DNA of 64,000 bases from the IMG/VR virus record IMGVR_UViG_2927124413_000004, positions 4,417-68,416 of that record; one strand, 5' to 3'. The notes under the pieces are model-generated. The model worked only from the letters and a program-made list of their open reading frames with translations, was not told where the DNA came from and ran no database searches. A program made the translations under genes and the position numbers. Positions 34,476-49,164 of the stretch are shown piece by piece. Source of the DNA: a virus. Positions within the stretch are counted from its first letter, which is position 1; the number at the start of each line of letters is the position of its first letter.

Positions 34476-36734
34476 TTACCAGAGGACGCCCTGAACCCAG
34501 GCCACCACACCGGCCCGGCGCAGGGTCCAGTTGATCGGCAGGATCAGCCGCAGCGCCATGCTGTCGGTCTGCCACATCGACTTGACCGGAGTGGCCGGCG
34601 TGCCCGGCGCCGCCCCGCTGATGATGTCAGCCGGCGCGGTGTCTTCCATATGCAGCGTGGCCTGGTCCGAGATCTCGAACCGTGGGCCCTCGCCGCCGAC
34701 GGTGACGAAGTCGGCGCAATCGACCGCGATCACTGTGCCCATCGGCACCGTACCGGAATCGATGATCGGCCAACCCTGCAGATTGCCGGCAGCAATCTGA
34801 GCCTGGAAGGGGAAGGCTCCCACACCAGGCGCTGCCGTCAGGCCAGCGCTCATGACCTGTTGCGGGTTCATCAGCCAGGCGGGGTTGCGGATATTGCCCA
34901 TCGTTGCGGTGAGCAATGCGCCCGCCACCTGCTTGATGTCGCCGACCAGGGCATCAAAGCGTGAGCCTCCGGCCGGTATCGGTGTCGGCGTCAACGCCGC
35001 CACGCCGTTGAGAATGCCCGCCGGCCGGATCTGGGTCGCCGGGTTGGTGTCGAGCAACACGCTGTCAAGCGAGACCGCGGTGTCCTCCTGGATCGCATTG
35101 CGGAGCAAGCCCTCGATGGCGGGCACGCTGTGCTCATCAATCTCGCGGGTCCAGGTGGTGATGACCGCCATCTTCTTCGGGGTCAGGGTCGCCGCCGTGA
35201 ATGCACCCTGCCGCACCGGGATCGGCATGCCTTCACCGACGAACGAGCCGGCGATGGTCGGCGTGCGCGAGCGGGTCGGAATGACGATGCGGCCGTTGCG
35301 ACCGAAGGTCAGTCCGAGGCCTCGGGCCGACAGCCGCGGATAGACGGCCTTGGCCTGCAGCAGCTCCATGAAGTCAGCGTTGATCTGCTGCACCAGCTCC
35401 GCCGCCCAGCCGGTGACCGTGGTCTTGGCCGGCGCGGTGGCGGCCTTGACGGCCCAGTCCAGTACCGCCTTGGTCATCTCGTCTTCGCCGTAGATCATGC
35501 GCCGAACCTGATCGATCGGTTCGTGGCGGAGGTGCGAGAACATCTGCACGGTGCCGGCGCGGACCAACAGGTCGAGCGGATCGAGCTTCTTCTTCGGCAT
35601 GTTGAACGGCCGCCGGCTGGTCGGCGGGTCGTCGTCGTTCGTCTTGATGACGTGGTTGTGGATGACGGTGGTGCGGCCGTCGCTGCTGCCTTCCGCCATG
35701 TTGGCCTCGGATTCGCGCAGCGTGGTGAGCGTCTTGTTCTCCTGCGCGATCTTGGCGTTGAGGTCAGTGGCCGTGGCAAGCTGTGCGTCGCTGACATTGG
35801 TGTCGTCGACACTGGCGAAATGCTCGGCCAGCTGGTCGCGGAGATCGACTAACCGCTTCTCCGAATCTTGAATACGTTTGGAAAATTGCTGAGCAAGCGA
35901 CATCGTCGTGCCCTTCCGTTCCGCAGATGATCGTTTGGCTTGCCCGCCGTTGAACCCGCGTCGCTGGATGCCGTCTTTTGCGCCTTGCCCGGCGAAGACG
36001 AGATCGATGGTTGCGGGAGAACTCTTCAGTGACTTGGCCACCGCCAACGCATTGGGGTTGGCCGGCACGGCGACCAGCGAGGTCTCCACCAGTTCGCTCT
36101 TGGTGAAGATCTGACCGCCGAATCCATATTCGTCGTTGGCATTGCGCGACTGCCGCTCGATCGGCCGGAAACCGACCGAGACCGCGCACAGGATGCCCTG
36201 CTCGACCAAGCTCAGGATCTCATCGATCCGCGCCGAGGTGCCCTTCCTGGCGAGCTCGAGGTGGCCGCGCAGCGCGCGATCCTTGACGCGCAGATTTTTC
36301 CATTTGCCGATCGGGAAATCGCTCTTGTGGTTGAACAGCGCGACCGGGTTCTTCTTGAAATTCTCCAGATCCCAACCGTCCGACCTGACGATGTCGTCCA
36401 TGCGGTCCGGCGTCTCATCGGACAGCACGAACTCCATGCCGCTGACGGTCTCGGCGTGAGTCTTGTGCACGACGCCATCGACGGCGCGGTTTTCCCAGAT
36501 CAGCTCGCAGGCGTCCTCATCGCCGAGCTCGTCAACGCAACGGTCGATGAAGTCCGCGCGGCTCTCATCTTCTTCCGGCTCGAGCTGCTTTGCGGACTTG
36601 TCCTTGTTGCGCCAGATGTTGAGGCAGGCAGCGACCGCCTGGTCGTTCTCGCGCTTGCCGTCGCCCATCATGTCGGGGACGCACCTGGACATGAACTCGC
36701 TCTGGCTTTCGCCTTTGTGCGGCTTCATCGGCAT
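34476..36734 (-). CDS. Fused prohead protease (U35/S78) and HK97-fold major capsid protein
   Basis: DRMDDIV...F.KNPV.LFNH...PIG, LCAVSVGF..., ELVETSLVAVPANPNA, followed by a capsid domain (FVGEG..IP, LTPKKM). Confidence 0.93.
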   Translation of the reverse strand: MPMKPHKGESQSEFMSRCVPDMMGDGKRENDQAVAACLNIWRNKDKSAKQLEPEEDESRADFIDRCVDELGDEDACELIWENRAVDGVVHKTHAETVSGMEFVLSDETPDRMDDIVRSDGWDLENFKKNPVALFNHKSDFPIGKWKNLRVKDRALRGHLELARKGTSARIDEILSLVEQGILCAVSVGFRPIERQSRNANDEYGFGGQIFTKSELVETSLVAVPANPNALAVAKSLKSSPATIDLVFAGQGAKDGIQRRGFNGGQAKRSSAERKGTTMSLAQQFSKRIQDSEKRLVDLRDQLAEHFASVDDTNVSDAQLATATDLNAKIAQENKTLTTLRESEANMAEGSSDGRTTVIHNHVIKTNDDDPPTSRRPFNMPKKKLDPLDLLVRAGTVQMFSHLRHEPIDQVRRMIYGEDEMTKAVLDWAVKAATAPAKTTVTGWAAELVQQINADFMELLQAKAVYPRLSARGLGLTFGRNGRIVIPTRSRTPTIAGSFVGEGMPIPVRQGAFTAATLTPKKMAVITTWTREIDEHSVPAIEGLLRNAIQEDTAVSLDSVLLDTNPATQIRPAGILNGVAALTPTPIPAGGSRFDALVGDIKQVAGALLTATMGNIRNPAWLMNPQQVMSAGLTAAPGVGAFPFQAQIAAGNLQGWPIIDSGTVPMGTVIAVDCADFVTVGGEGPRFEISDQATLHMEDTAPADIISGAAPGTPATPVKSMWQTDSMALRLILPINWTLRRAGVVAWVQGVLW

Positions 36735-36797
36735 AGCTCGACCTCCCGCCGAAGCCGAGACTCCGGACGTCAAGACTTCCGCTACAGATTTTGAGGA

Positions 36798-36995
36798 TTA
36801 CGGCGTCGGCTTCTTACGTAGCGCCTTGGCCTTGACCTGGTGGCGCCTCCGATGCTTCGCTCGGATCGGCGCCATGATCTTCTCGTCGATCGGATAGTCG
36901 ACCGGGTTCAGAATCGCGTTGTGCAGCTCGGCATCCTGCTTGCTGCCGTCGTCATCGGTGTAGAAGAATTCGTTGGCCTCGCGCTTCGGCATCAT
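36798..36995 (-). CDS. Small hypothetical protein (possible cognate inhibitor of the upstream domain)
   Basis: ATGA overlap with the 1076-aa ORF stop. Confidence 0.55.
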   Translation of the reverse strand: MMPKREANEFFYTDDDGSKQDAELHNAILNPVDYPIDEKIMAPIRAKHRRRHQVKAKALRKKPTP

Positions 36996-39900
36996 TTGGC
37001 CTTTCCGACGTAGGCCTTGAACCGCGCCATCGATTCCCGGTCTTTCAGGTTGAGCACGCCGGCCCAGCTCGAATTGAGCAACATCTCCTTGCCGCGCGGA
37101 TGATCGGCGACCTTCCAGATCGATTTCGGATCGCTGGAGTGGATCGCCTGCAGCAGCTCATCTTCCTCGCGCTCCGGCAGCTCCAGCTGTGGCTCTTCAT
37201 CCTCGTCACGCTCGATCTCGATGTCGGCCATGCCGTAGCGGATTGCCTCGCGCAGTTTCTCGTCGTCGTCTTTCTGGTCCCAGTATTCCTCCTGGTACTC
37301 GCTGATGCTGTCGGCCAGGTACTCCGGCGGGTCCATCCGATCGGCCTTGTCCTCGGCCTCTTTGTTGAAGGCGTCGATCAACTCCTTTTGGATCTCGTCG
37401 CGGGCGTCCGCGCTCAGCATCTCGCTCGGTGTCAGCGGCTCGATCCCTGGCAAGGTCTGCTGCGCCGGGTCGTAGCCGGCCGGCGTCATGCGATCGAGCT
37501 CGTCGTCCATGAACTCGATCGACGGATCCTTGGTGCCGTCCCAGCCGCGCTCGTAATCGATCTTGATGGCGCCCAGGATCTCATCGTCGCTGAACGGGAT
37601 GTCCGGTTCGCCCTCGGCAATGCGGTTCTCGCGCCACTCCGCCACCGCGTTCTTGGCCCAGTCGTCCGACGGCCCGACGAAACTGTCGGCAAGCTCGCCC
37701 TTGGCGTCATCGAGCGCTTGGCCGCTCTCGCGCCAGTTCTGCTCCTCGCTGGAGAGAAATTCGCTGTAGCTGTCGTTCATCCAGCGCCGCTTCACGGCGT
37801 CTTGCATGTCCTCACCGAGCATCGACCAATCATCGGCCTCGTAGGTGTCGGTGCCACGGGATGGCGCGCCTCTGCCACCCAGCTTGCGCTCGAGCTCGCC
37901 GCGCAGCTCCGCCCATGACGAGGCTGTCGGCACATAACCGTATTTCGCCCAGGCATAACCGCCGACATCGATGTTGGCGCTGACCTTGAGCTTCTCGAGG
38001 CCGAGCGCCTCGTAAACCTCGACATTGCCGCCGAGCACCTTCTTGCCGATGTTGTGCTTGGTGGTGTTTTTGTTCAGCTTGAAGAAAGCCGAATAGGCGG
38101 ACTTATCGTCCGGCGAGATCTGGCGGTCGTACTCGCCGACGCGGTTGCCGCTGTCATCCAGGATGCCGCCGCCGATGTAGAACGTCGAACCCGACAGGCC
38201 GATGTTCATGGTGGCGTGTTCGAGGCCGCCGAGGAAACTTTTCTTGAACTCCTCCGGCTCGATGCCGATTTTCGCATTCCACTTTTCGACGAACGCCGCT
38301 TCCTCGCTGCTGGTGGCGTTGATCTTGATCTTGGCCTTGTCGAAATCGTCTTTCCTGGCCGGCTTCTTGCTTTTCTTCGGCTTGGCCTCCGCCGCCGGCT
38401 TGTCGGCCGCTGACGTCGCCGAGGATCCACCGCCACCGCCGGAAGTGAATTGTCCACCGGTCGACGTGCCGGCGGGATCGCGTGGATGCTGACTTTCGTC
38501 CCAGCGCTGATGGAATCTATGCTTGAGCAGCTGGAAGCGCTGGGCGTTTAGCTTTTCTTGAGCACCAGCTCGCCGTTGATCTCCTCGAAGTGGCTCCAGT
38601 CCTGCAGCTCTTCCGGCAGCTCCATCTCGAGCTCCGCCGTCCACTCCGGCCGTGGGTTGCCCCAGGCCATGTCGATGTAGCTCTCGCGCGTCACCGGGAC
38701 GCCGGCCTTTTTCATCATCTCGATAACTTCGTCGCTCATGCTTCAATCCTGCCAGCTCGGCGATCGTGGCTTGCGTCTGCCCGAGCGTTACGTTTGCGTC
38801 GTCATGGTACGCGCGCCAGGCGTCCTCGACCGCAGCGGCTTGTTTCTTGCTCAGATTGCCGAATGCTTCCCGTTTAACCACCCAGACCGCTGATTGCAAT
38901 TGCCGCGGCTGGATCCCGAGCTCCTTTGCCGCTTCACGGTAAGCATCGGCATAGACCGGATACAGCCCGCTCGAGCCGGTCTTGATCGAACTGCCGGCGG
39001 CTTCCCAGCCTTCCGGCTTGTCGGCCTTATCGGGCGTCAGGCCGAAATTGTGCAGTACCGGCACCGTCTTGTTGGAGAGCGGCCGCAGCAGCGCGGCGCC
39101 GACGGCGTGGGTGTCGATGGTGACGTCGCCATTGGCGGAATGCGGATCCAGAATATTGTTGTAGAATGAGCGCACCTTATGCGCGGTGCCCATCGCGGCT
39201 GAGATCTGCGCGGTGTCGCCGTTGGCCTCGAGCGCCTTCACCGCATTGGTGATCGAAGCCAACGATTGCCAGACCACCTTGGCGTTGCTGCCGTCCTTGT
39301 TCTTGACGATCGGACCGAGCGCGCCGTTCGGCAGCACGGTGCGGTAGATGGTCGAATTGTGGGTCTCATCGTAGGTCCGGATCCACAGCGCCTTCTCCGC
39401 CGGGCTGGTCAGTTCGCCGAGCGTCTTGCCGCGCACCAGGTCGACCACCGCCTGGTTCTTGTCGGACCACAGCGTCTTGGATTTCTCCTCCATCTTATCG
39501 TCCCAGCGGTGACCCTGCTGCTGCTTGTAAGTCTTCAGCAGCATGTCAGCGATGTGGACGTTCTGATCCCAGTCCTTGGTCGGCGACAGCGCAGCGTAGA
39601 CGCCCGCGATTGAGGCGTCGTTGAAGCCGTAGAGCTCGGCGCGGTCATCGACCAGGGCGCGGGCGCCGTCGTACCAGATCTCGGTGTGGTGGTCCGCGAA
39701 GCCGTAGAGGAATTTCAAATTTTCCTTCAGGTGGTCGACCACCGCGCGAGTCGCATCGTCGGTCGAGCCCTTCAGCTCTTGCGGCCGGAAGTTCGGGTAG
39801 AAATCGGTGTTCTTGAACAGGTTGATGTCATGCTCGTAGCGCTTCGGGTCGAGCTTCATCGAGGCGACGTCGGGCTGCCCGTAGGCGAGCGGCTTGTCCT

Positions 39901-40222
39901 TCGCGGTCGGCTGCCTCGAGCCGATCGTATTCGGATGCTGGCCCTTATTGCCAGGAAGCGGCTTCACGCCGGCGGCCTTGGCCTGCTCGCTGGCGGCGGC
40001 GACATTGGCGTGGGTCTTGGCTTCGACCTTGGCGGTATCGATCGCAGTCCCGGTGCCTCCGCCGTCCGACCCACCGGTATCTACCCAGCGACCGTGCTCG
40101 TCCCTGGGCTGACTGGGATCGAACTTCAGGTAAAGCTCGCCCAACAGCGCCAGCCCGCGCGTATACTGCCGCTGCCACCGATCACGCCGCAGCTCCGCCT
40201 GCTGTCGCTCAATGATCGACAT
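36992..40222 (-). CDS. 1076-aa multidomain head-region protein: HhH-glycosylase-like domain plus GNAT-like domain
   Basis: KFDPSQPRDEHGRW and RWDESQHPRDPAG..GGQFT motifs; WY..A, AALSP..W..N, KVRSFYNN, VTIDTHA, QLQSAVW; IGKKVL...Y..LG...V.ANIDVGGYAWAKYGY. Confidence 0.7.
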   Translation of the reverse strand: MSIIERQQAELRRDRWQRQYTRGLALLGELYLKFDPSQPRDEHGRWVDTGGSDGGGTGTAIDTAKVEAKTHANVAAASEQAKAAGVKPLPGNKGQHPNTIGSRQPTAKDKPLAYGQPDVASMKLDPKRYEHDINLFKNTDFYPNFRPQELKGSTDDATRAVVDHLKENLKFLYGFADHHTEIWYDGARALVDDRAELYGFNDASIAGVYAALSPTKDWDQNVHIADMLLKTYKQQQGHRWDDKMEEKSKTLWSDKNQAVVDLVRGKTLGELTSPAEKALWIRTYDETHNSTIYRTVLPNGALGPIVKNKDGSNAKVVWQSLASITNAVKALEANGDTAQISAAMGTAHKVRSFYNNILDPHSANGDVTIDTHAVGAALLRPLSNKTVPVLHNFGLTPDKADKPEGWEAAGSSIKTGSSGLYPVYADAYREAAKELGIQPRQLQSAVWVVKREAFGNLSKKQAAAVEDAWRAYHDDANVTLGQTQATIAELAGLKHERRSYRDDEKGRRPGDARELHRHGLGQPTAGVDGGARDGAAGRAAGLEPLRGDQRRAGAQEKLNAQRFQLLKHRFHQRWDESQHPRDPAGTSTGGQFTSGGGGGSSATSAADKPAAEAKPKKSKKPARKDDFDKAKIKINATSSEEAAFVEKWNAKIGIEPEEFKKSFLGGLEHATMNIGLSGSTFYIGGGILDDSGNRVGEYDRQISPDDKSAYSAFFKLNKNTTKHNIGKKVLGGNVEVYEALGLEKLKVSANIDVGGYAWAKYGYVPTASSWAELRGELERKLGGRGAPSRGTDTYEADDWSMLGEDMQDAVKRRWMNDSYSEFLSSEEQNWRESGQALDDAKGELADSFVGPSDDWAKNAVAEWRENRIAEGEPDIPFSDDEILGAIKIDYERGWDGTKDPSIEFMDDELDRMTPAGYDPAQQTLPGIEPLTPSEMLSADARDEIQKELIDAFNKEAEDKADRMDPPEYLADSISEYQEEYWDQKDDDEKLREAIRYGMADIEIERDEDEEPQLELPEREEDELLQAIHSSDPKSIWKVADHPRGKEMLLNSSWAGVLNLKDRESMARFKAYVGKAK
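38548..38739 (-). CDS. 63-aa acidic protein overprinted inside the 1076-aa ORF
   Basis: AGGA RBS 7 nt upstream; protein-like sequence, whereas the overlapping frame reads as Arg/Gly-rich shadow sequence. Confidence 0.7.
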   Translation of the reverse strand: MSDEVIEMMKKAGVPVTRESYIDMAWGNPRPEWTAELEMELPEELQDWSHFEEINGELVLKKS

Positions 40223-40683: not shown

Positions 40684-41007
40684 TCACCTCACCTTGTTGG
40701 CGGGATGGCGCGGATCGATTGGCCACCCATCATCGTCGATGTCGTTGGAGTAGCCGTGCAGCTCGAGCCGCCGCTTCTGCCGATCGTGGCAATCGAAGCA
40801 GAGCGATTGCAGCTTGCCGAGCCGAAACTTATTCCAATCGCCGCGGTGCTCCTCGACATGATCGGCGACCCTGGCCGGCGTGACGATGCCGCGGTCCAGG
40901 CACATCTTGCACAGCGGCTCGTGCTTGAGCTGCAGCCGGCGCATCCGCTTCCAGACGCCAGTGTCGTAGAAATGCTGCCACTGGGTCCGGGTCGAGCTTT
41001 CATCCAT
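40684..41007 (-). CDS. HNH endonuclease (HK97 gp74-like terminase cofactor)
   Basis: W...R...L..EPLCKMC...VADH..H......LQSLC..CH. Confidence 0.9.
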   Translation of the reverse strand: MDESSTRTQWQHFYDTGVWKRMRRLQLKHEPLCKMCLDRGIVTPARVADHVEEHRGDWNKFRLGKLQSLCFDCHDRQKRRLELHGYSNDIDDDGWPIDPRHPANKVR

Positions 41008-41167
41008 GGTCGAGCGGTCGGGCGAGCCAAGCCGCCAGCGCCTGACAGCCGGCGGCCCATGCGTAGAGCGCGACCACCTGCCATTGCACCGCCGCCCGCA
41101 GCCAGACCGTCGCCAGATCGTCCGGCGGGTTCGATGGTTTGCTCGTGACCAGTCTGAGCTTGGGCAT
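41000..41167 (-). CDS. Small hypothetical protein
   Basis: GAGGAGG RBS; hydrophobic C-terminus. Confidence 0.5.
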   Translation of the reverse strand: MPKLRLVTSKPSNPPDDLATVWLRAAVQWQVVALYAWAAGCQALAAWLARPLDHG

Positions 41168-41181
41168 GTCACCCTCCTCGA

Positions 41182-42467: not shown

Positions 42468-42667
42468 CGCCGATCGCCGCGCCAGGCCGGCTTCGACAAC
42501 AATGCAAGGTGCCACCCATGGCGGCGGCTGCAATACTCGCGCACCCAATCCAGCGTATGGCCCTTCATGAAGCGCAGGATCGGCGCCGTTTCGGTGACGC
42601 GACCGTCGACCAGGGTGATGCCGGCGGTGAAGCGGCGGTTGGTGATCTGGGCACGCACTTCTTCCAT
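42464..42667 (-). CDS. Small conserved phage hypothetical protein
   Basis: FTAGI...GRV...APILRFMKG..L..V..YC motif; overlaps the terL stop. Confidence 0.6.
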   Translation of the reverse strand: MEEVRAQITNRRFTAGITLVDGRVTETAPILRFMKGHTLDWVREYCSRRHGWHLALLSKPAWRGDRR

Positions 42668-44250
42668 CAGCCGATCAAACTCTCGATGTCCACCGGCACG
42701 TCGGCGAGCCGATCGCGCGATCGTAAGCCGAGCAGCATCGAGAGCGCAACGGCGCCGTCGATCCGAAACCGGGCCTTGTCCTTGTCGAGCTTGCGGTTGC
42801 CGGCGGGATCCATCGTCACCACCGCATTAGCGACGTTCCAGTTCAGGCACGGGTTGTTGGGATGGATCAGGTTGCGCTCCATCACCGCTTTTTCGAACGC
42901 ATCGATCGCCGGCCCCATCGAAACGTAGCCTTGGCCCCACGGCACCAGGCGCATGCCATCGTCATGGGCTTTGTCGCTGCCCTTGTCTTCCCAGGTCTGC
43001 AGCCCGATCCGATCGAGCTCGCGCTGCAGGTCGGCGATGCGGTAGCGATCGTAGGCGAAGCCGACGACGTTGTAGCGCATCACCAGGTCGCCGATCAGCA
43101 GCGCGATCGCTTCATGGTTGATGGTGCGGCCCGCCGAGGCCAACAAATGGCCCTGGTCGCGCCATTGCTCATAGCGGTAGGAGCCGGCGCCGAAGTCGCG
43201 CAAACTATGCTCGCCGAGATGATCTTCCGGCTTCCAGAAATACGGCTGGATCCGGACCGGCTCCTCGGCCGAGCCGGCGATCAGCGCGGTGAGGTCGGCG
43301 ACGCTGGAGAGATCGAGCGCCAGGTAGACGTCTTCGCCATCTTTCAGCGCCGCTTCCTCCGGCGTGCCGGCGCAGGCCATCCAGTCGGCGCGCGCGATCA
43401 AGGTTGCCGTTGGATTGATCCGTTGGTTCAGAAACAGGTTGCGAACCTTGGGTTCTTCCGCCGGCAGCCGTACCGCCTTGCGCACCGCGGCCACGAGATC
43501 CTCGCGGTTGCGGAAGACGCCGAGCGCCGGGTTGGCCTTCAGCCACTGCTTCTGGTCCTGGAGGTCGCAATCCTCGTCCGCGGCGTGGAGGTGGCAGACG
43601 ATCGAGGGGTCGACCTTCGACAGGCCGTCGTCGATCAGCTTCGACAGCACATGCTCGGGGTCGTTGCTCTGCGTCGAGATGACGATGAACAGCGGCTCCT
43701 CGCGCGCGCCAAACGCGGTGACCATCACGTCATAGAGGTCGCGGTTGCGGGCCTGGGCGAGCTCGTCATAGATCACGACGCTCGGCAGGTAGCCATGTTT
43801 GGTGCCGACTTCGCTCGACAGCGCGCGGTACACCGAACCGGTGCGCCGCGCGACCATGGTTTTGGTCGACGGAATGATATCGACCTTCGCCAGCAGCTCG
43901 GGCTCCATCTCGACGATCTGGCGCGCGAACTTGAACACGATGGCGGCCTGATCGCGGTCGTTGGCGCAGCTGTAGATCTCGCCGTTGACGATCGCCTCGG
44001 GGCCGACCAGATGCGCCAGCGCAATCGCGGCGATCAGTGCGGTCTTGCCGTTTTTCCTGGCCATCGAGAGAATGGCGCGACGCACCGCGCGGTTGAGGCC
44101 GAGGTGCGGGGTGTAGATGTCGCGGATGAACAACTTCTGGAACGGCAGCAGCTTGAACGGTTTGCCGGCGCCGATGCCGGACGGCACCGTCAGCTTTTCG
44201 ATGAACCGGATCACGCGCTCGGCGCGGTCCGGCTTTTGCGTGATGCTCAC
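42667..44250 (-). CDS. terL: Terminase large subunit (Terminase_1, cos-type)
   Basis: LLPFQ, MARKNGKT, CANDRDQA, VIYDE, ISTQ, ANPALG, LALDLS, RIDGAVA. Confidence 0.96.
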   Translation of the reverse strand: MSITQKPDRAERVIRFIEKLTVPSGIGAGKPFKLLPFQKLFIRDIYTPHLGLNRAVRRAILSMARKNGKTALIAAIALAHLVGPEAIVNGEIYSCANDRDQAAIVFKFARQIVEMEPELLAKVDIIPSTKTMVARRTGSVYRALSSEVGTKHGYLPSVVIYDELAQARNRDLYDVMVTAFGAREEPLFIVISTQSNDPEHVLSKLIDDGLSKVDPSIVCHLHAADEDCDLQDQKQWLKANPALGVFRNREDLVAAVRKAVRLPAEEPKVRNLFLNQRINPTATLIARADWMACAGTPEEAALKDGEDVYLALDLSSVADLTALIAGSAEEPVRIQPYFWKPEDHLGEHSLRDFGAGSYRYEQWRDQGHLLASAGRTINHEAIALLIGDLVMRYNVVGFAYDRYRIADLQRELDRIGLQTWEDKGSDKAHDDGMRLVPWGQGYVSMGPAIDAFEKAVMERNLIHPNNPCLNWNVANAVVTMDPAGNRKLDKDKARFRIDGAVALSMLLGLRSRDRLADVPVDIESLIG

Positions 44251-44756
44251 GAGGCCAGCAGGTCGTCGAACTTGCTTTCCGGCTGCTCACCGTCGGCGGC
44301 GATCCTGGAGCGGCTGGCCGGCGTGAAGCCGAATTCCTGGGCGTAGCGCAGCAGGTCGTGGGCGGCGTCGCGCGCGATCTTGATCAGCGCATTGGCAGCC
44401 ATGCCGCGCTCGGTCCTGGTGAGCAGACCGAAATGGTGCGGGTCATCGGCCTTGACCGCGGTCATCGCGTCCTGGGCTTCGCACCAGGTGCTGTAGGCGT
44501 CGCAGTACAGCATCAGCGGCGCCAGGTCGGCGACCGTCAGCAAACCGAGCCGGTGCAGCTCGGGCGCCAGGCGGAGCCACTCCTCGCGCGCTTCGTCCTT
44601 GAGCCGGACCGGCGGCGGCGGCACTCTGTCGAAACGCGAAGGCTTCACCTCGCCGTGCAGCCGGGCCTTCGATTGATGGCCGGGGTTGCCGCGCAGGATC
44701 TTGAGCGCAGCGGGGGTGGCGGGCCGTCCGGCGGGCATGGCGACAACTCCTTTCAT
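44247..44756 (-). CDS. terS: Terminase small subunit, P27 family
   Basis: GRPATPAALKILRGNPG, W..LAPEL..LGLL, FGFTPASRSRI. Confidence 0.93.
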   Translation of the reverse strand: MKGVVAMPAGRPATPAALKILRGNPGHQSKARLHGEVKPSRFDRVPPPPVRLKDEAREEWLRLAPELHRLGLLTVADLAPLMLYCDAYSTWCEAQDAMTAVKADDPHHFGLLTRTERGMAANALIKIARDAAHDLLRYAQEFGFTPASRSRIAADGEQPESKFDDLLAS

Positions 44757-44942
44757 CCTGGCGCGAAACGGGGCTAACCCCCTGGGATCCCTGTGGTGAC
44801 CGTCCCGCATGTATGAAGAGCCCACTAACGCGTTCGAACCTCGGCCGGTGTTGGTAGCGGCGACGTCGAACAGCGCATGGGCGCGGGGCACTGCTTGTGC
44901 CCTGGGTCGAAAACAACACCGAAAATGGAGCCGTTGCGCGCT

Positions 44943-47900
44943 CTATCGTAAGCGGCGCCTAATCCTCGCTGCCGTATCTTCTCGGGTCGCTTGGTGATCG
45001 TAGGTTTTGGCTATCACCATCAAAAGCTGCGATGAGACGAACGGATGCGAAGTCTGAAGGGCCAATCCCCACTTGCGATACTTTTCCGCCAGATTACGCT
45101 CTTGGTCGCCGCCTTCGCCGCGCCCGTGAACGCCTCGTGAGTTGTACACGCCAGTATGGGCACCCCGCATCATAGCCTCGGACTGAATGTCCTCCATCAC
45201 ATCGCGCACCGGCTCACACGGCCACACGCCGTCCTTCCCGGTCGGCGCGCCAGACAGCACCTTGCCGACACAGTTATCGGCAATGTCTGCTCGGTCTAGC
45301 TCGGCGCACGATTGGCGTACAGTCGCGAGCCACTTCGCAAGACGTTCAGTCTCCAGTTCCCCAAGGTCGTTGTGACCCGGAATCCTCTCTATGGCTTCGA
45401 GCAACTTGTAGCCGCGCTCAGCCATCGTTGTGACGCGCTCCGGCGGGACTTGGAATTCGGCCGGGTCATTGGCGCCGTCCTTGCGCTTGTACGTCCACGC
45501 GATCGCCTGAACAAAAAGCTCGGGGTGCAATTCGACGTACCGCTCCAGATTAGGGATCCCATAGTGGTTCCGCCTATCCCAACGACGTGCGAGCACCTCG
45601 ATGTAGGCGAACTCAAGACCCGCCTTTTCGTCCATCGTGAGCACGTGGCTACTGTTCAAGTGCTTGAAGCCCTCTTCAATGCTGTGGTGATCGAGCATGT
45701 AGTGACCGGGCTGCTCTTCGCCGCCCAGCGCCATCGCGGACAGCAAATTGAACAGAACCTGCGCGTCAAGCTTGCTGGGTTCATGCCGGATGCACGAAAA
45801 CGCCGCGCGGGGCCGTTTGGCCTTCAACAACCGCTCGACGCTTTCATTGTTCTCTGCATCCGAATTGCGAATCCAATCCGGCGTGACATCGCTCCAATAC
45901 CTGGCATGGGCCACTTCGCTAAGCGCGTCTACCAGCTGCCAGATCCTCTTGCCATACGGCGCAAGAACAAACAGCCGGACGATTTCTTGTTCGGACAATC
46001 CCGCCGCGACGCCACGGAGAACCGCTTCAAGCTTCTCGCTATTTCCTATGAAGCTGTGCAGTGCGCCGCCGATAAGATTCCTGTAGGCGTGAACCTCTTC
46101 CCTGCCTGCGAGGACCGAATCGAGGGCAAGCCGGAGCAATTCTCGAAGTTCTTGCTCGCTCAGCACGAGGGTAGCTAGTATCACTCCGATCATCCATGAT
46201 GCTTTTCCCCGCTTGGAAAGCTCCAGAATCCCGGCAAACCCCCGCTGCTCTATGACTTCGCGTAACGCCTCGGCTCTCAAGCTCTTGATTCGCTCTTCAC
46301 GAGCGTTGTAGTCGTATCTTTCGACATCCTCGATCTCGTCGGCGGATTCTTCGATCCAAGTGTCACGGAAGAGCCACGCATGCTTGTTTAGAAGGTCAAT
46401 CGGCTCGAGCGCCCTATAAGCGGTCTTGCCCGCTGTTGCGAAGCTTGTCGGTTTGCCGCCCTTCTTCGCGCGAACCGCAGCACGCCGCGATAACGTGGCA
46501 ACCCGAATTTTTTCGCGCATTGCGGCCTTATCGCCATCGCTAGCCTTATTCTTTGCCCAATCTTCGATCAAGGTCCAAACGCGGTTCTGATCGGCCTCGA
46601 TGAGACTCTGAAGACGGTCCACCAAGTCGCACAGCATGCTGAGCGAATGGTCTCGCCAGGTGAGAGCCATTTCGATCATCTCACGAACGAACTCGTCAAT
46701 CGGTCCCCGCGTCGAGAATGGTTCGCCGAACCCATATCCGTCGGCACGCCAGCGCGGTTTGTGGCTGTAATCGCCTACTCCGCTATGCGTGCTGAATTGC
46801 GATACGCAAATTTTCCAAGCTACGTCCGGAAATTTTTGCGCCAGCTTCTGCATCAACTCCACCCGCTCTCGATGGCTTGCAGCTGTCTGCGGCATCCAGG
46901 CTCGGAAGATTGATTCCAAAGAGTGCGTCGGCTTGTTGACCCAATTATCGTTGATCTCGACCTGTGCGAGGCGGGCCAGGATGGCGGCGGCGCGCGGCAA
47001 CGTTACCGGGTTCCACGAAAGGCCCTCCAATGCCCACAGGAGACCCGTGCGACTCGGGCTACGCCCGAATACACCTGCATCCGCCGGACGTAGAAGGCCG
47101 AAAACTGCAGGTTCTTTGGACCTGAGATCGCGCTCGATGATCGAAAGGAATTCGTTAGGCGCTGCTTCCGCGTAGGTCGGAAGATCTCTGTCGTGGGCCT
47201 CCAATATCCGCGTGGTCAACGGCGTCGGGAGCAAATCACGCACAACGCGCATCGCCTCAAATTCGGTATCAACGCCGAGATGGCGCTTGAACAAGTTCTC
47301 GCCATGCACAGCCAGCAAGACCAGGGTTTCCGAGATGCCTTCGCGGAAAGCGGCGGAAAATTCGCGCGTCTTTCCATGGAGCGACGCTGCCCAGCGCTGA
47401 TCGTCGTCTAGATCGAGCGCGGGGTCGTCTTCGCCGAGCACCATTCGTGCGATAGCGAAATAGAGGCTTAGGTGTTCAGGCGTCACCGCGCCAGCGATGG
47501 CGTATAGCAGATCAATTTTCGATATCACACCTCTGTAGTGGCCAAGGGACCACATCGGCGCATCGTTCAGCCGAGTAAGGCTCTGACACTCCTTCTCAAG
47601 ATCGTCATAAAGCCTGTCTCCGGCGAGGAGCGATAGACCTAGCTTGTCTGTCTCGTTCTGGCTATTCCACGCACCCACGAAAAGGAAGGGCACGAGGCTC
47701 GCTGCTGTCGGACGGTCCGCCGCCCATTCTGGTGTCCGCACCGCAGGCACCGTCGAAAGTTGACGGCGCAAAACGGTAAGCGACCGGCCGGAAGCGTTCG
47801 TCAGCCGCGAGATCTCATCGCGGTCCTTGCCCATCGCTTCGAGCGCCTTGTTGAAAGTGTCGTAGTTCGCAGGTTCGAGAACAATGTCGGCTTCGGTGGT

Positions 47901-49073
47901 CGCCGCATTGCGCGGGTAAACAACAACGGAGTGCATCGAATTCGCATAGGGGGCGAGTTCGCGCTCGACCTCTCGCGTGAACACGACCGGTATGAAGGTC
48001 TGCGCGCCTGCTGCCAAGCGCGGCAGGACGCCAGGCTTGTCGAACACGAGAACGCTATCTCGGTACGAGGCCAGTTCTTCGCCACCGCGTTCGCCAAGCA
48101 GTTGGGCGAGAAAGGCAAGCGCCTCTTCCGTCGAGTCCGCCGCGACCAAGGTTGGCCGGTCAGCGGGATTCGCCAGGCGCGAGAGCATTGTGCGTTTGGT
48201 CGCCTCGATGGCCGAGCTGAACAGCGCGCCCGTCAAGGGCGGTCTCGAGGCGTCGGCCCAGTCAGCCCAGCACTTGTCTAGCGAACGAACGTGCTGCGCG
48301 GGTATGCCCGCTTCATTGGCGAACCACGCTTGTCCGGGCAGAGACTGCTCCAGCCATTGCTCAAGATCGCTAGCGTCGTATGCGCGAACGTCTTTCCAAA
48401 GTCCTTTTGCCTGTTTTGCTGCAACCCAATCAGCCTTCCCGGGCCAGCGGCGCGGTGTGACGAAAACGAACGTGATCTCCGTGCGCTCCTCCGCACTAAG
48501 GGCCTTAACGCTTTTCTCAAAGTCGCCTTCGGCCTTCGCCTTGGGATTCTCGTTGGTGCCAAATTCCCAGCCGGAGGATCCAGCAGGGACCCAGGGCGTC
48601 CCGTCGCTCGCTTCCGCGATTCCGTCCCATCCAGGACGTTCGGCATCGTCGTTGCCGGGAAAGTCCACCTTAGTCAGCCCACTGCCGGTCGAGTGGACCA
48701 GCGTACGTAAAAAAACTGCCAACCGGCTCCGCGCGGGGATGTTGTGCGCAACCCAACCTTCGATGTCATTGGCCTTGATAGCCAGAAAGGGCGGTACGTA
48801 TGCCTTGGTTTCAGTCGGCGGGTCTATGTGCTTCGCTTGCGCCTCTTCGTACCTCGCTTGCATCGCCATCAGGTCGTTGCGAGGGTAATTGAATGCTTTT
48901 TCTAGGCGCGCTGCCATGTCAGCGGACAAAGCGGCTTTGCCGTTGAGCAGATTCGACAACGCCGGGCGGCCCACACCCATCAACTGGGCGGCTTTCGTGA
49001 CTGACATACCAGGGGGAATAACGTCAGATTTGATGCGGGCTCCCGGATGAGCAGCATCTGCGCGAGCGTCCAT
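44943..49073 (-). CDS. 1376-aa putative anti-phage protein: HigA-type HTH, PD-(D/E)xK-like nuclease, degenerate STAND-like region, helical sensor
   Basis: HPG.RI...MSVT.AA..MGV.R..LS.LLNGKA.LSADMA.RL (HigA antidote HTH); FPG.D...PGWDG...WEFGT...K.KA..D..K; TFVFVTPRRW; VRAYDA.DLEQWL. No canonical Walker A seen. Confidence 0.7.
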   Translation of the reverse strand: MDARADAAHPGARIKSDVIPPGMSVTKAAQLMGVGRPALSNLLNGKAALSADMAARLEKAFNYPRNDLMAMQARYEEAQAKHIDPPTETKAYVPPFLAIKANDIEGWVAHNIPARSRLAVFLRTLVHSTGSGLTKVDFPGNDDAERPGWDGIAEASDGTPWVPAGSSGWEFGTNENPKAKAEGDFEKSVKALSAEERTEITFVFVTPRRWPGKADWVAAKQAKGLWKDVRAYDASDLEQWLEQSLPGQAWFANEAGIPAQHVRSLDKCWADWADASRPPLTGALFSSAIEATKRTMLSRLANPADRPTLVAADSTEEALAFLAQLLGERGGEELASYRDSVLVFDKPGVLPRLAAGAQTFIPVVFTREVERELAPYANSMHSVVVYPRNAATTEADIVLEPANYDTFNKALEAMGKDRDEISRLTNASGRSLTVLRRQLSTVPAVRTPEWAADRPTAASLVPFLFVGAWNSQNETDKLGLSLLAGDRLYDDLEKECQSLTRLNDAPMWSLGHYRGVISKIDLLYAIAGAVTPEHLSLYFAIARMVLGEDDPALDLDDDQRWAASLHGKTREFSAAFREGISETLVLLAVHGENLFKRHLGVDTEFEAMRVVRDLLPTPLTTRILEAHDRDLPTYAEAAPNEFLSIIERDLRSKEPAVFGLLRPADAGVFGRSPSRTGLLWALEGLSWNPVTLPRAAAILARLAQVEINDNWVNKPTHSLESIFRAWMPQTAASHRERVELMQKLAQKFPDVAWKICVSQFSTHSGVGDYSHKPRWRADGYGFGEPFSTRGPIDEFVREMIEMALTWRDHSLSMLCDLVDRLQSLIEADQNRVWTLIEDWAKNKASDGDKAAMREKIRVATLSRRAAVRAKKGGKPTSFATAGKTAYRALEPIDLLNKHAWLFRDTWIEESADEIEDVERYDYNAREERIKSLRAEALREVIEQRGFAGILELSKRGKASWMIGVILATLVLSEQELRELLRLALDSVLAGREEVHAYRNLIGGALHSFIGNSEKLEAVLRGVAAGLSEQEIVRLFVLAPYGKRIWQLVDALSEVAHARYWSDVTPDWIRNSDAENNESVERLLKAKRPRAAFSCIRHEPSKLDAQVLFNLLSAMALGGEEQPGHYMLDHHSIEEGFKHLNSSHVLTMDEKAGLEFAYIEVLARRWDRRNHYGIPNLERYVELHPELFVQAIAWTYKRKDGANDPAEFQVPPERVTTMAERGYKLLEAIERIPGHNDLGELETERLAKWLATVRQSCAELDRADIADNCVGKVLSGAPTGKDGVWPCEPVRDVMEDIQSEAMMRGAHTGVYNSRGVHGRGEGGDQERNLAEKYRKWGLALQTSHPFVSSQLLMVIAKTYDHQATREDTAARIRRRLR

Positions 49074-49164
49074 AAGCAATTCCTCTCAAAGGCGGCCTAG
49101 AATCGGCCGACCGCATCGTGTCGCGCTACACAATACAATCCGCACAGTTGCCTGAAGGAGAGAA

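What the first reader, a model, noticed from the sequence alone, without database searches (positions are those of the whole stretch)
44943..49073. Giant HigA-HTH/nuclease/sensor fusion inserted immediately upstream of terS
Seen: a textbook HigA antidote HTH fused to a PD-(D/E)xK-like segment (GWDG...WEFGT), then a STAND-like region whose P-loop looks degenerate (TLVAADSTEEALAF), then about 900 aa of helical sequence. Codon usage is visibly less GC3-rich than the structural genes, and there is no HigB partner. Known: large single-gene anti-phage proteins (Avs/STAND-type and related) use an effector-NTPase-sensor layout, and prophage morons often encode defence. Inference: a self-regulating prophage-encoded abortive-infection sensor, possibly NTPase-independent.
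Basis: partly seen in the sequence, partly recalled or inferred. Interest (0 to 1): 0.8.

Follow-up and report, generated by a model that had tools for sequence, protein, structure and literature searches.

The report
Self-repressing, P-loop-less Avs8-like phage sensor
A 1376-residue prophage gene annotated everywhere as a "HigA antitoxin" is most likely a single-protein anti-phage receptor related to Avs8 (nuclease, STAND-like core without an ATP-binding loop, helical sensor) that carries its own repressor head and a conserved operator.

Summary
Window 44946-49073 (minus strand) is one intact 1376-aa gene. It has a HigA-type HTH (residues 6-82), a PD-(D/E)xK-like fold (about 93-246), a STAND NBD-HD-WHD fold (about 259-530) and an 850-aa all-helical solenoid.

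- **No P-loop:** the Walker A position reads ADSxxEAL in every relative examined.
- **Closest known system:** Avs8/PD-lambda-4, which senses the major capsid protein. The solenoid is remotely but collinearly homologous to the Avs8A sensor (hhalign 93.8%, E 1.7e-7). There is no Avs8B partner, no HigB and no full-length PADLOC match.
- **New here:** a 26-bp palindrome sits 40-80 nt upstream of almost every HTH-bearing family gene (70 of 78 loci). It is absent upstream of HTH-less members and reads as a -35/-10 promoter, so the HTH probably represses its own gene.
- **Mobility:** the gene moves as a single-gene cassette. GC3 is 0.67 against 0.80-0.87 in the neighbouring genes. It lies in a variable slot upstream of terS that related phages fill with an HNH gene only.
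- **Family size:** over 6000 50%-identity clusters, including E. coli HS and Klebsiella pneumoniae.

A published "KpAvs8" that naturally lacks nucleotide-binding residues may belong to this family; I could not check. The scan noted a relative before on other DNA (e1-2895091). Function is inferred, not shown.

The parts
44946..49073 (-). Coding sequence of the 1376-aa HTH-nuclease-pseudoSTAND-sensor protein (stop codon at 44943-44945)
   Evidence: ORF list and translation. Full-length match to phrog_18693 (E 1.8e-131). More than 1700 full-length homologues.
48828..49058 (-). HigA-type XRE helix-turn-helix, residues 6-82
   Evidence: TIGR02607 54.6 bits, above the cut-off. Pfam HTH_3. PDB HigA chains are the only sequence hits. 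45-54% identity to small plasmid HigA antitoxins.
48336..48797 (-). PD-(D/E)xK-like (Mrr/FokI-like) nuclease-fold domain, residues about 93-246, with invariant D150, E170 and K180
   Evidence: AF2 model pLDDT 94.2. VIA-align hits: FokI Z 8.6, MspJI Z 8.4, EcoT38I Z 7.9. AFDB hits are named restriction endonuclease or Mrr. Invariant columns.
47484..48299 (-). STAND-type NBD-HD-WHD fold without nucleotide-binding motifs, residues about 259-530
   Evidence: CED-4 Z 12.1 (254 aligned, rmsd 4.4). Plant NLRs and EfAvs5 Z 10-10.6. Foldseek hits: Avs3 E 1.2e-6, Avs4 8e-5.
48117..48140 (-). ADSTEEAL, residues 312-319: the strand-to-helix turn that replaces Walker A
   Evidence: Secondary structure of the model. 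Family-wide ADSxxEAL signature and no GxxxxGK[ST] at this position in 270 relatives. The same holds in 30%-identical viral members. hhalign places it on Avs8A GLSGVGKT, at low confidence.
44946..47483 (-). All-helical solenoid, the putative ligand sensor, residues 531-1376
   Evidence: AF2 model pLDDT 90.8, helices only. PDB hits are generic alpha-solenoids. AFDB hits include an 'ATP-binding protein' with the same C-terminal fold (TM 0.70).
45324..47291 (-). Part of the sensor that is collinearly homologous to the Avs8A (PD-lambda-4A) sensor, residues 595-1250
   Evidence: hhalign A2 vs A3: probability 93.8%, E 1.7e-7, 581 columns. BLASTP E 1e-7 over 614-817 vs 538-726. PADLOC PD-Lambda-4_A partial hits in the window protein and in 6 of 7 further diverse members.
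49112..49137 (.). Palindromic operator-like site, 22 of 26 matches to TGTAWWGTGTWRCGYWACACWWTACA. It overlaps a -35/-10-like pair, and its promoter-proximal outer arm is degraded in this copy.
   Evidence: Alignment of upstream regions. 75 sites in 1.44 Mb of loci, all directly upstream of family genes. 70 of 78 HTH-bearing loci carry it. HTH-less members score at background. It is the only site in the 64-kb window.
44247..44891 (-). terS (context), followed by terL at 42667-44250
   Evidence: phrog_83 and phrog_9. Related phages have HNH-terS-terL with no large gene upstream.

Best explanation
The gene most likely encodes a single-polypeptide innate-immunity receptor of the Avs (antiviral STAND) kind, carried by the prophage as a moron. 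The steps below are marked shown or inferred.

1. **Autorepression.** Shown: an N-terminal HigA-type HTH, and a 26-bp palindrome 40-80 nt upstream of the gene that co-occurs with that HTH. Inferred: HTH dimers sit on the palindrome. It overlaps a -35 TTGTAT / 17 nt / -10 TACAAT-like promoter, so the protein would keep its own, potentially toxic, level low.
2. **Sensing.** Shown: an 850-aa helical solenoid remotely homologous to the sensor of Avs8A. Inferred: it binds a conserved protein of an infecting phage. By analogy with Avs8 this would be an HK97-fold major capsid protein; I put about 40% on that particular trigger.
3. **Activation without NTP.** Shown: the central module has the STAND NBD-HD-WHD fold but lacks Walker A and a conserved Walker B acid throughout the family. 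Inferred: ligand binding, not NTP binding, drives oligomerisation.
4. **Killing.** Shown: a PD-(D/E)xK-like fold with invariant D150, E170 and K180. Inferred: oligomerisation brings these domains together, and they cut DNA and abort the infection.
For: - **Architecture:** high-confidence models. Best PDB matches are Avs3, Avs4, Avs5, SAMD9, CED-4 and plant NLRs for the core, and FokI and MspJI for the head. AFDB neighbours are named Mrr, NACHT or STAND NTPase.
- **Link to Avs8:** PADLOC PD-Lambda-4_A partial hits at collinear positions in the window protein and in 6 of 7 further diverse members. BLASTP gives E 1e-7 and hhalign 93.8% over 581 columns against Avs8A homologues fetched from Enterobacterales genomes. 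Avs8A is a Mrr-nuclease/P-loop/repeat protein activated by HK97-fold capsid proteins (10.1101/2025.07.02.662641; PMC13581612).
- **P-loop loss:**. PMC13581612 and its preprint supplement report a working KpAvs8 that naturally lacks nucleotide-binding residues.
- **Operator:**
- **Mobility and defence-type neighbourhoods:** a stand-alone gene at the edge of integrase islands. Neighbours include methyltransferase/HNH genes, an AAA_15/AAA_21/DUF3696 ATPase and a RelA_SpoT gene, and one copy lies between tail fibre and integrase. NERD, NOV_C and DUF4238 genes are nearby.
- **Cassette:** boundaries lie at the ORF ends, GC3 is low, and the slot is empty in related phages.
Against: - No experiment bears on this family under its own name, and no PADLOC model matches full length.
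- Sensor similarity to Avs8A is remote (17% identity over the aligned columns). The nuclease and STAND parts do not align significantly with Avs8A (probability 3.8%).
- The canonical (D/E)xK lysine is missing: the sequence reads E170-F-G. The invariant lysine lies ten residues on, in the next helix, so catalysis is plausible but unproven.
- A prophage-borne capsid sensor would have to spare the prophage's own 765-aa protease-capsid fusion. This is unresolved.
- In this copy the outer right arm of the palindrome, which is the putative -10, is degraded (TGCGGT). Expression from its own promoter is therefore uncertain.
Confidence: 0.7

Rival explanations
1. It is an Avs-type receptor as described, but its trigger is not the major capsid protein. 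The sensor has diverged from Avs8A enough to recognise a different phage protein or a host-derived signal.
For: Only 17% identity to the Avs8A sensor over 581 columns. The C-terminal 126 residues, among the best conserved in the family, fall outside the Avs8A alignment. Avs families with similar architectures sense many different phage proteins (PMC13581612).
Against: The motifs shared with Avs8A are among the most conserved in both families. PMC13581612 groups Avs families by sensor structure and places a P-loop-less Klebsiella protein in Avs8.
Confidence: 0.3
2. It is a fused toxin-antitoxin or addiction module that stabilises the mobile elements carrying it. The HigA head would neutralise or only repress the nuclease body, with no phage sensing.
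For: The HTH is a genuine HigA relative. The gene always rides on mobile elements. Autorepression through an operator is typical of TA loci.
Against: About 15% of family representatives lack the HTH yet keep the whole body, so the head is not needed to hold the body in check. An 850-aa conserved solenoid and a STAND fold have no role in a simple addiction module. No HigB or ParE is present.
Confidence: 0.08
3. It is a regulator of the prophage itself, for example the missing immunity repressor or an induction sensor, rather than a defence gene.
For: It has an XRE-type HTH. Another first-stage note reports a cro-type switch without cI in this prophage (e1-5357526).
Against: The operator motif occurs once in the 64-kb window, in front of the gene itself. 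The same gene with the same operator sits in non-phage islands, plasmids and chromosomes of many phyla. Phages related by terL lack it.
Confidence: 0.03
4. It is a restriction-like or DNA-processing enzyme whose solenoid recognises modified DNA or a DNA structure, not a protein.
For: The head resembles the cleavage domains of FokI and of the modification-dependent enzyme MspJI. Some copies lie next to methyltransferases.
Against: The effector-STAND-solenoid order and the Avs8A-like sensor point to protein sensing. No DNA-binding fold was found in the solenoid.
Confidence: 0.05

Closest known systems
Avs8 / PD-lambda-4 (Avs8A of E. coli ECOR07, WP_000963924.1)
   Same: N-terminal PD-(D/E)xK-type nuclease, STAND core and long helical repeat sensor, with a body of about 1280 aa. 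The sensors are collinearly homologous. Both are mobile and conserved across genera.
   Different: This protein has no Walker A or B (Avs8A has GLSGVGKT and ILDNCP) and no Avs8B partner gene. It has an extra HigA-type HTH and an upstream operator. Its nuclease and core are not detectably similar to Avs8A in sequence. It gives only a partial, sub-threshold PADLOC match.
KpAvs8 (Klebsiella pneumoniae protein tested in PMC13581612)
   Same: [quoted passage not shown] The family studied here occurs in K. pneumoniae.
   Different: Identity could not be established. No accession was found in the held text, and the family's motifs are absent from the stored part of the supplement, which is truncated. 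The paper does not mention an HTH or an operator.
Avs3 / Avs4 (PDB 8dgc, 8dgf)
   Same: Best Foldseek matches to the nuclease-plus-core model (E 1.2e-6 and 8e-5), with the same tripartite layout.
   Different: They have intact ATP-binding sites, TPR sensors for terminase or portal, and no HTH.
HigA antitoxins of HigBA modules
   Same: The HTH matches the HigA equivalog model above its cut-off, and a palindromic operator lies upstream.
   Different: This protein is 1376 aa rather than about 100 aa. No HigB exists in the provirus. The RefSeq name 'HigA family addiction module antitoxin' describes 6% of the protein.

Membership tests
STAND / Avs (AVAST) receptors | NBD-HD-WHD fold of STAND NTPases | tested here: met
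   CED-4 Z 12.1 (254 residues aligned, rmsd 4.4). NLRs and EfAvs5 Z 10-10.6. Foldseek Avs3 E 1.2e-6.
STAND / Avs (AVAST) receptors | Walker A GxxxxGK[ST] and Walker B hhhhD/E for NTP binding | tested here: not met
   ADSxxEAL occupies the strand-helix turn. None of 270 relatives has a P-loop at this position, nor do the 30%-identical members. The Walker B position is not conserved.
STAND / Avs (AVAST) receptors | Tripartite order: N-terminal effector, central core, C-terminal repeat sensor | tested here: met
   Models and fold searches.
STAND / Avs (AVAST) receptors | Anti-phage activity triggered by a phage protein | not testable with these tools
   This needs plating and co-expression assays.
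Avs8 / PD-lambda-4 | Sensor homologous to the Avs8A sensor | tested here: met
   hhalign 93.8%, E 1.7e-7, 581 columns. BLASTP E 1e-7.
Avs8 / PD-lambda-4 | Full-length match to the PADLOC PD-Lambda-4_A model | tested here: not met
   Only 100-200 residue partial hits, E 4.5e-6 to 4e-3. Genome search with the model finds true Avs8A but not this family.
Avs8 / PD-lambda-4 | Two-gene operon with Avs8B (PD-Lambda-4_B) | tested here: not met
   No PDLC03992 match in the provirus or in three genomes that carry the family. The positive control matched at E 8e-194. No neighbour is conserved across loci.
Avs8 / PD-lambda-4 | Activation by HK97-fold major capsid protein | not testable with these tools
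   It cannot be assessed from sequence or single-chain fold comparisons.
HigA antitoxin (type II TA) | HigA-type HTH | tested here: met
   TIGR02607 54.6 bits vs cut-off 47.7.
HigA antitoxin (type II TA) | Small protein paired with a HigB toxin gene | tested here: not met
   The protein is 1376 aa. PF05015 and PF05016 are absent from the 71.6-kb provirus. No small conserved neighbour appears in other loci.
PD-(D/E)xK nucleases (Mrr/FokI-like) | Restriction-endonuclease-like alpha/beta core | tested here: met
   FokI Z 8.6 (139 aligned), MspJI Z 8.4, EcoT38I Z 7.9. AFDB hits are named restriction endonuclease or Mrr. The Z values are moderate.
PD-(D/E)xK nucleases (Mrr/FokI-like) | Catalytic D ... 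(D/E)-x-K | tested here: inconclusive
   D150 (before strand 2) and E170 (strand 3) are invariant. The residue at +2 is Gly or Ser, not Lys. Invariant K180 lies in the following helix.

The most novel reading that the evidence does not exclude
A very large, unnamed branch of bacterial STAND immunity has dispensed with nucleotide binding altogether and has built its own dosage control into the receptor. The HigA-derived head represses the promoter while the protein is idle. When ligand-induced oligomerisation pulls the protein off the operator, the gene would be derepressed. That would give a receptor whose activation feeds back on its own synthesis.
Probability: 0.3. Interest if true: 0.75.

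Novelty: new variant of a known kind. Interest (0 to 1): 0.6.

Why it matters
**Annotation.** Thousands of RefSeq and metagenome proteins of about 1370 aa are named 'HigA family addiction module antitoxin', and 94% of each lacks any Pfam domain. Recognising them as Avs8-related receptors corrects the annotation. It also adds a widespread family to the defence catalogue, found in Alpha-, Beta- and Gammaproteobacteria, Desulfovibrio, Myxococcales, Bacteroidota, E. coli HS, Klebsiella and Salmonella.

**Mechanism.** Family-wide loss of the P-loop makes this a natural test case for how a STAND scaffold can be switched on without NTP.

**Regulation.** The strictly co-occurring HTH and palindrome give a directly testable example of a defence protein that represses its own promoter. 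This bears on how toxic immune effectors are kept safe on mobile elements.

Tried and rejected
- **PDB sequence and profile searches** found only HigA chains for the head and nothing for the body.
- **Pfam** found nothing in residues 90-530 of any of 72 members.
I scanned seven single members instead.
- **tblastn against deposited phage genomes** gave one weak partial hit.
- **Drawing relatives of the window's genome** is impossible because it is a virus record. I used a Serratia genome as the centre instead.
- **Looking for the KpAvs8 accession or this family's motifs** in the paper's held supplements found nothing. Searching papers for family accessions also found nothing. The stored file is truncated, so this is no evidence either way.
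- **Literature searches** for HTH-bearing or autoregulated Avs proteins found nothing relevant.
- **Scattered GxxxxGK[ST] strings** in 10 relatives lie at unrelated positions and are chance matches.
Full report
**The gene.** Window 44946-49073 (minus strand) is a single open frame of 1376 codons. It starts at an ATG with a GAGAGG ribosome-binding site and ends 52 nt before terS. The window belongs to a 71.6-kb provirus record rated 96% complete. The provirus is a contractile-tailed phage with a portal, a 765-aa protease-capsid fusion, a tail sheath, terS/terL, an endolysin and an HNH gene.

**Domain by domain.**
- *HTH head.* Residues 6-82 match the HigA equivalog model above its cut-off and are about 50% identical to ordinary 100-aa plasmid HigA antitoxins. 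Pfam sees nothing else in the protein, nor in residues 90-530 of 72 relatives.
- *Nuclease-like head domain.* An AlphaFold2 model of residues 90-530, built on 72 diverse homologues, has pLDDT 94.2 and pTM 0.91. Its first domain (protein residues about 93-246) aligns with the cleavage domains of FokI, MspJI and EcoT38I (Z 8.6, 8.4, 7.9). D150 of GWDG, E170 of WEF and K180 are invariant in all 72 sequences. The lysine is not at the canonical +2 position but ten residues on, so I call the active site plausible, not established.
- *STAND core.* The second domain (about 259-530) aligns with the NBD-HD-WHD modules of CED-4 (Z 12.1), plant NLRs and EfAvs5 (Z about 10). Foldseek's best PDB hits for the whole model are Avs3 and Avs4 (E 1.2e-6 and 8e-5). 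AFDB neighbours carry Mrr, NACHT and STAND NTPase names.
- *Sensor.* Residues 520-1376 fold as an all-helical solenoid (pLDDT 90.8) with only generic solenoid matches in the PDB.

**The P-loop is gone in the whole family.** The strand-to-helix turn that should carry GxxxxGK[ST] reads ADSTEEAL. ADSxxEAL-type strings are the family signature, and none of 270 relatives has a P-loop at this position. Viral members only 30% identical also lack it. The Walker B position is not conserved either.

**Relation to Avs8.**
- The only PADLOC signal is a partial hit to PD-Lambda-4_A. It recurs at collinear positions in 6 of 7 further diverse members.
- PD-lambda-4 has been renamed Avs8. Avs8A is a Mrr-nuclease/P-loop/repeat protein that binds HK97-fold major capsid proteins and then degrades DNA (10.1101/2025.07.02.662641; PMC13581612).
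- I fetched Avs8A homologues from Enterobacterales genomes using the PADLOC model and translated and aligned them.
- BLASTP between the window protein and Avs8A gives E 1e-7 over residues 614-817 vs 538-726. It joins motifs that are among the best conserved in both families.
- Profile-profile comparison of the two sensors gives 93.8% probability, E 1.7e-7, over 581 collinear columns.
- The N-terminal halves do not align significantly (3.8%). The low-confidence alignment is nonetheless collinear and puts ADS on GLSGVGKT.
- Avs8B, the second gene of the Avs8 operon, is absent from the provirus and from three genomes that carry the family. No neighbour is conserved across loci.
[quoted passage not shown] The present family occurs in K. 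pneumoniae, so KpAvs8 may be a member. I could not obtain its accession.

**A conserved operator.**
- Nucleotide similarity between the window and other loci stops at the ORF ends plus about 65 nt upstream. That short upstream block contains a palindrome.
- I scanned 1.44 Mb of fetched loci with TGTAWWGTGTWRCGYWACACWWTACA. This gives 75 sites with at least 21 of 26 matches. Every one lies directly upstream of a family gene.
- 70 of 78 HTH-bearing loci have such a site (75 of 78 at 19 or more matches), centred a median 82 nt before the HPG codon.
- Random 430-nt windows never exceed 18 matches. Five HTH-less members and one member with a different HTH score 14-17.
- The sequence varies by clade while staying palindromic.
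- The consensus reads TTGTAT, 17 nt, TACAAT. By my inference this is a sigma-70-type promoter buried in the operator, which suggests autorepression.
- The window copy (49112-49137) scores 22 of 26 and has a degraded outer arm where the -10 would be. It is the only such site in the window. That argues against a role as the prophage's general repressor.

**Mobility and context.**
- *Family size and range.* The family is very large: 6278 50%-identity clusters at E up to 1e-3. At least 484 species genomes across several phyla carry it, as do 18 plasmid records with full-length copies, 10 of 5426 complete E. coli genomes including strain HS and 10 viral contigs.
- *Head variation.* About 15% of representatives lack the HTH, and some clusters carry HTH_17 or MerR heads instead.
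- *Genomic setting.* The gene stands alone at the edge of integrase islands.
- *Neighbours.* These include methyltransferase/HNH genes, an AAA_15/AAA_21/DUF3696 ATPase, a RelA_SpoT gene, and NERD, NOV_C and DUF4238 proteins. In one contig the gene lies between tail fibre and integrase.
- *In this prophage.* Its GC3 is 0.67 against 0.80-0.87 for neighbouring genes. Phages with 67-68% identical terL have the order o53209-o52443-HNH-terS-terL with no such gene. The 7.5 kb between 44943 and 52443 is therefore an insertion-prone slot.

**Verdict.** The protein works like an Avs receptor and is a distant, P-loop-less, single-gene relative of Avs8 with a built-in repressor. It fails the membership tests for HigA antitoxin and for canonical Avs8. 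Defence, the trigger and nuclease activity are inferred. The scan had already flagged a relative on other DNA as an unexplained HigA-headed giant (e1-2895091).

Noticed in passing
window 40684-41172 (-) versus L113, L117, L124: Related phages have the usual HNH-terS-terL order. In this prophage the HNH endonuclease gene lies downstream of terL and the endolysin, and the slot upstream of terS holds about 7.5 kb of other genes.
   Followed up: partly
window 34476-36773 (-): The major capsid protein is a 765-aa fusion with an N-terminal prohead protease (phrog_617, phrog_80). If the neighbouring receptor senses capsid proteins, how the prophage avoids self-triggering is an open question.
   Followed up: no
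L100 and L101 (proteins P0276, P0274): Two Enterobacterales Avs8A homologues (1376 aa) carry what looks by eye like an alpha/beta-hydrolase N-terminus (HGLGG...GHSLGG) in place of the Mrr nuclease. This appears to be an effector swap within Avs8.
   Followed up: no
L102 10122-11838 (E. coli HS): Directly upstream of the E. coli HS family gene lie a 185-aa 'HigA family' protein and a PIN-domain protein, at the end of a decayed integrative conjugative element next to guaA.
   Followed up: no
AFDB A0A355YGP1: A 1065-aa protein named 'DUF4132 domain-containing' shares the nuclease-plus-pseudoSTAND module (TM 0.80, 31% identity) and most of the sensor. Part of this family may therefore be indexed under DUF4132.
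   Followed up: no
L006 and L011, about 250 nt upstream of the gene: In two close relatives the palindrome lies about 250 nt further upstream, and a long GC-rich hairpin (GGAGGCGTGAGCCGCCACGCATG...CATGCGTGGCGG) sits between it and the start codon.
   Followed up: no
window 36992-40222 (-): A 1076-aa ORF between the HNH gene and the capsid gene has three separate stretches matching phrog_3842 (unknown function).
   Followed up: no
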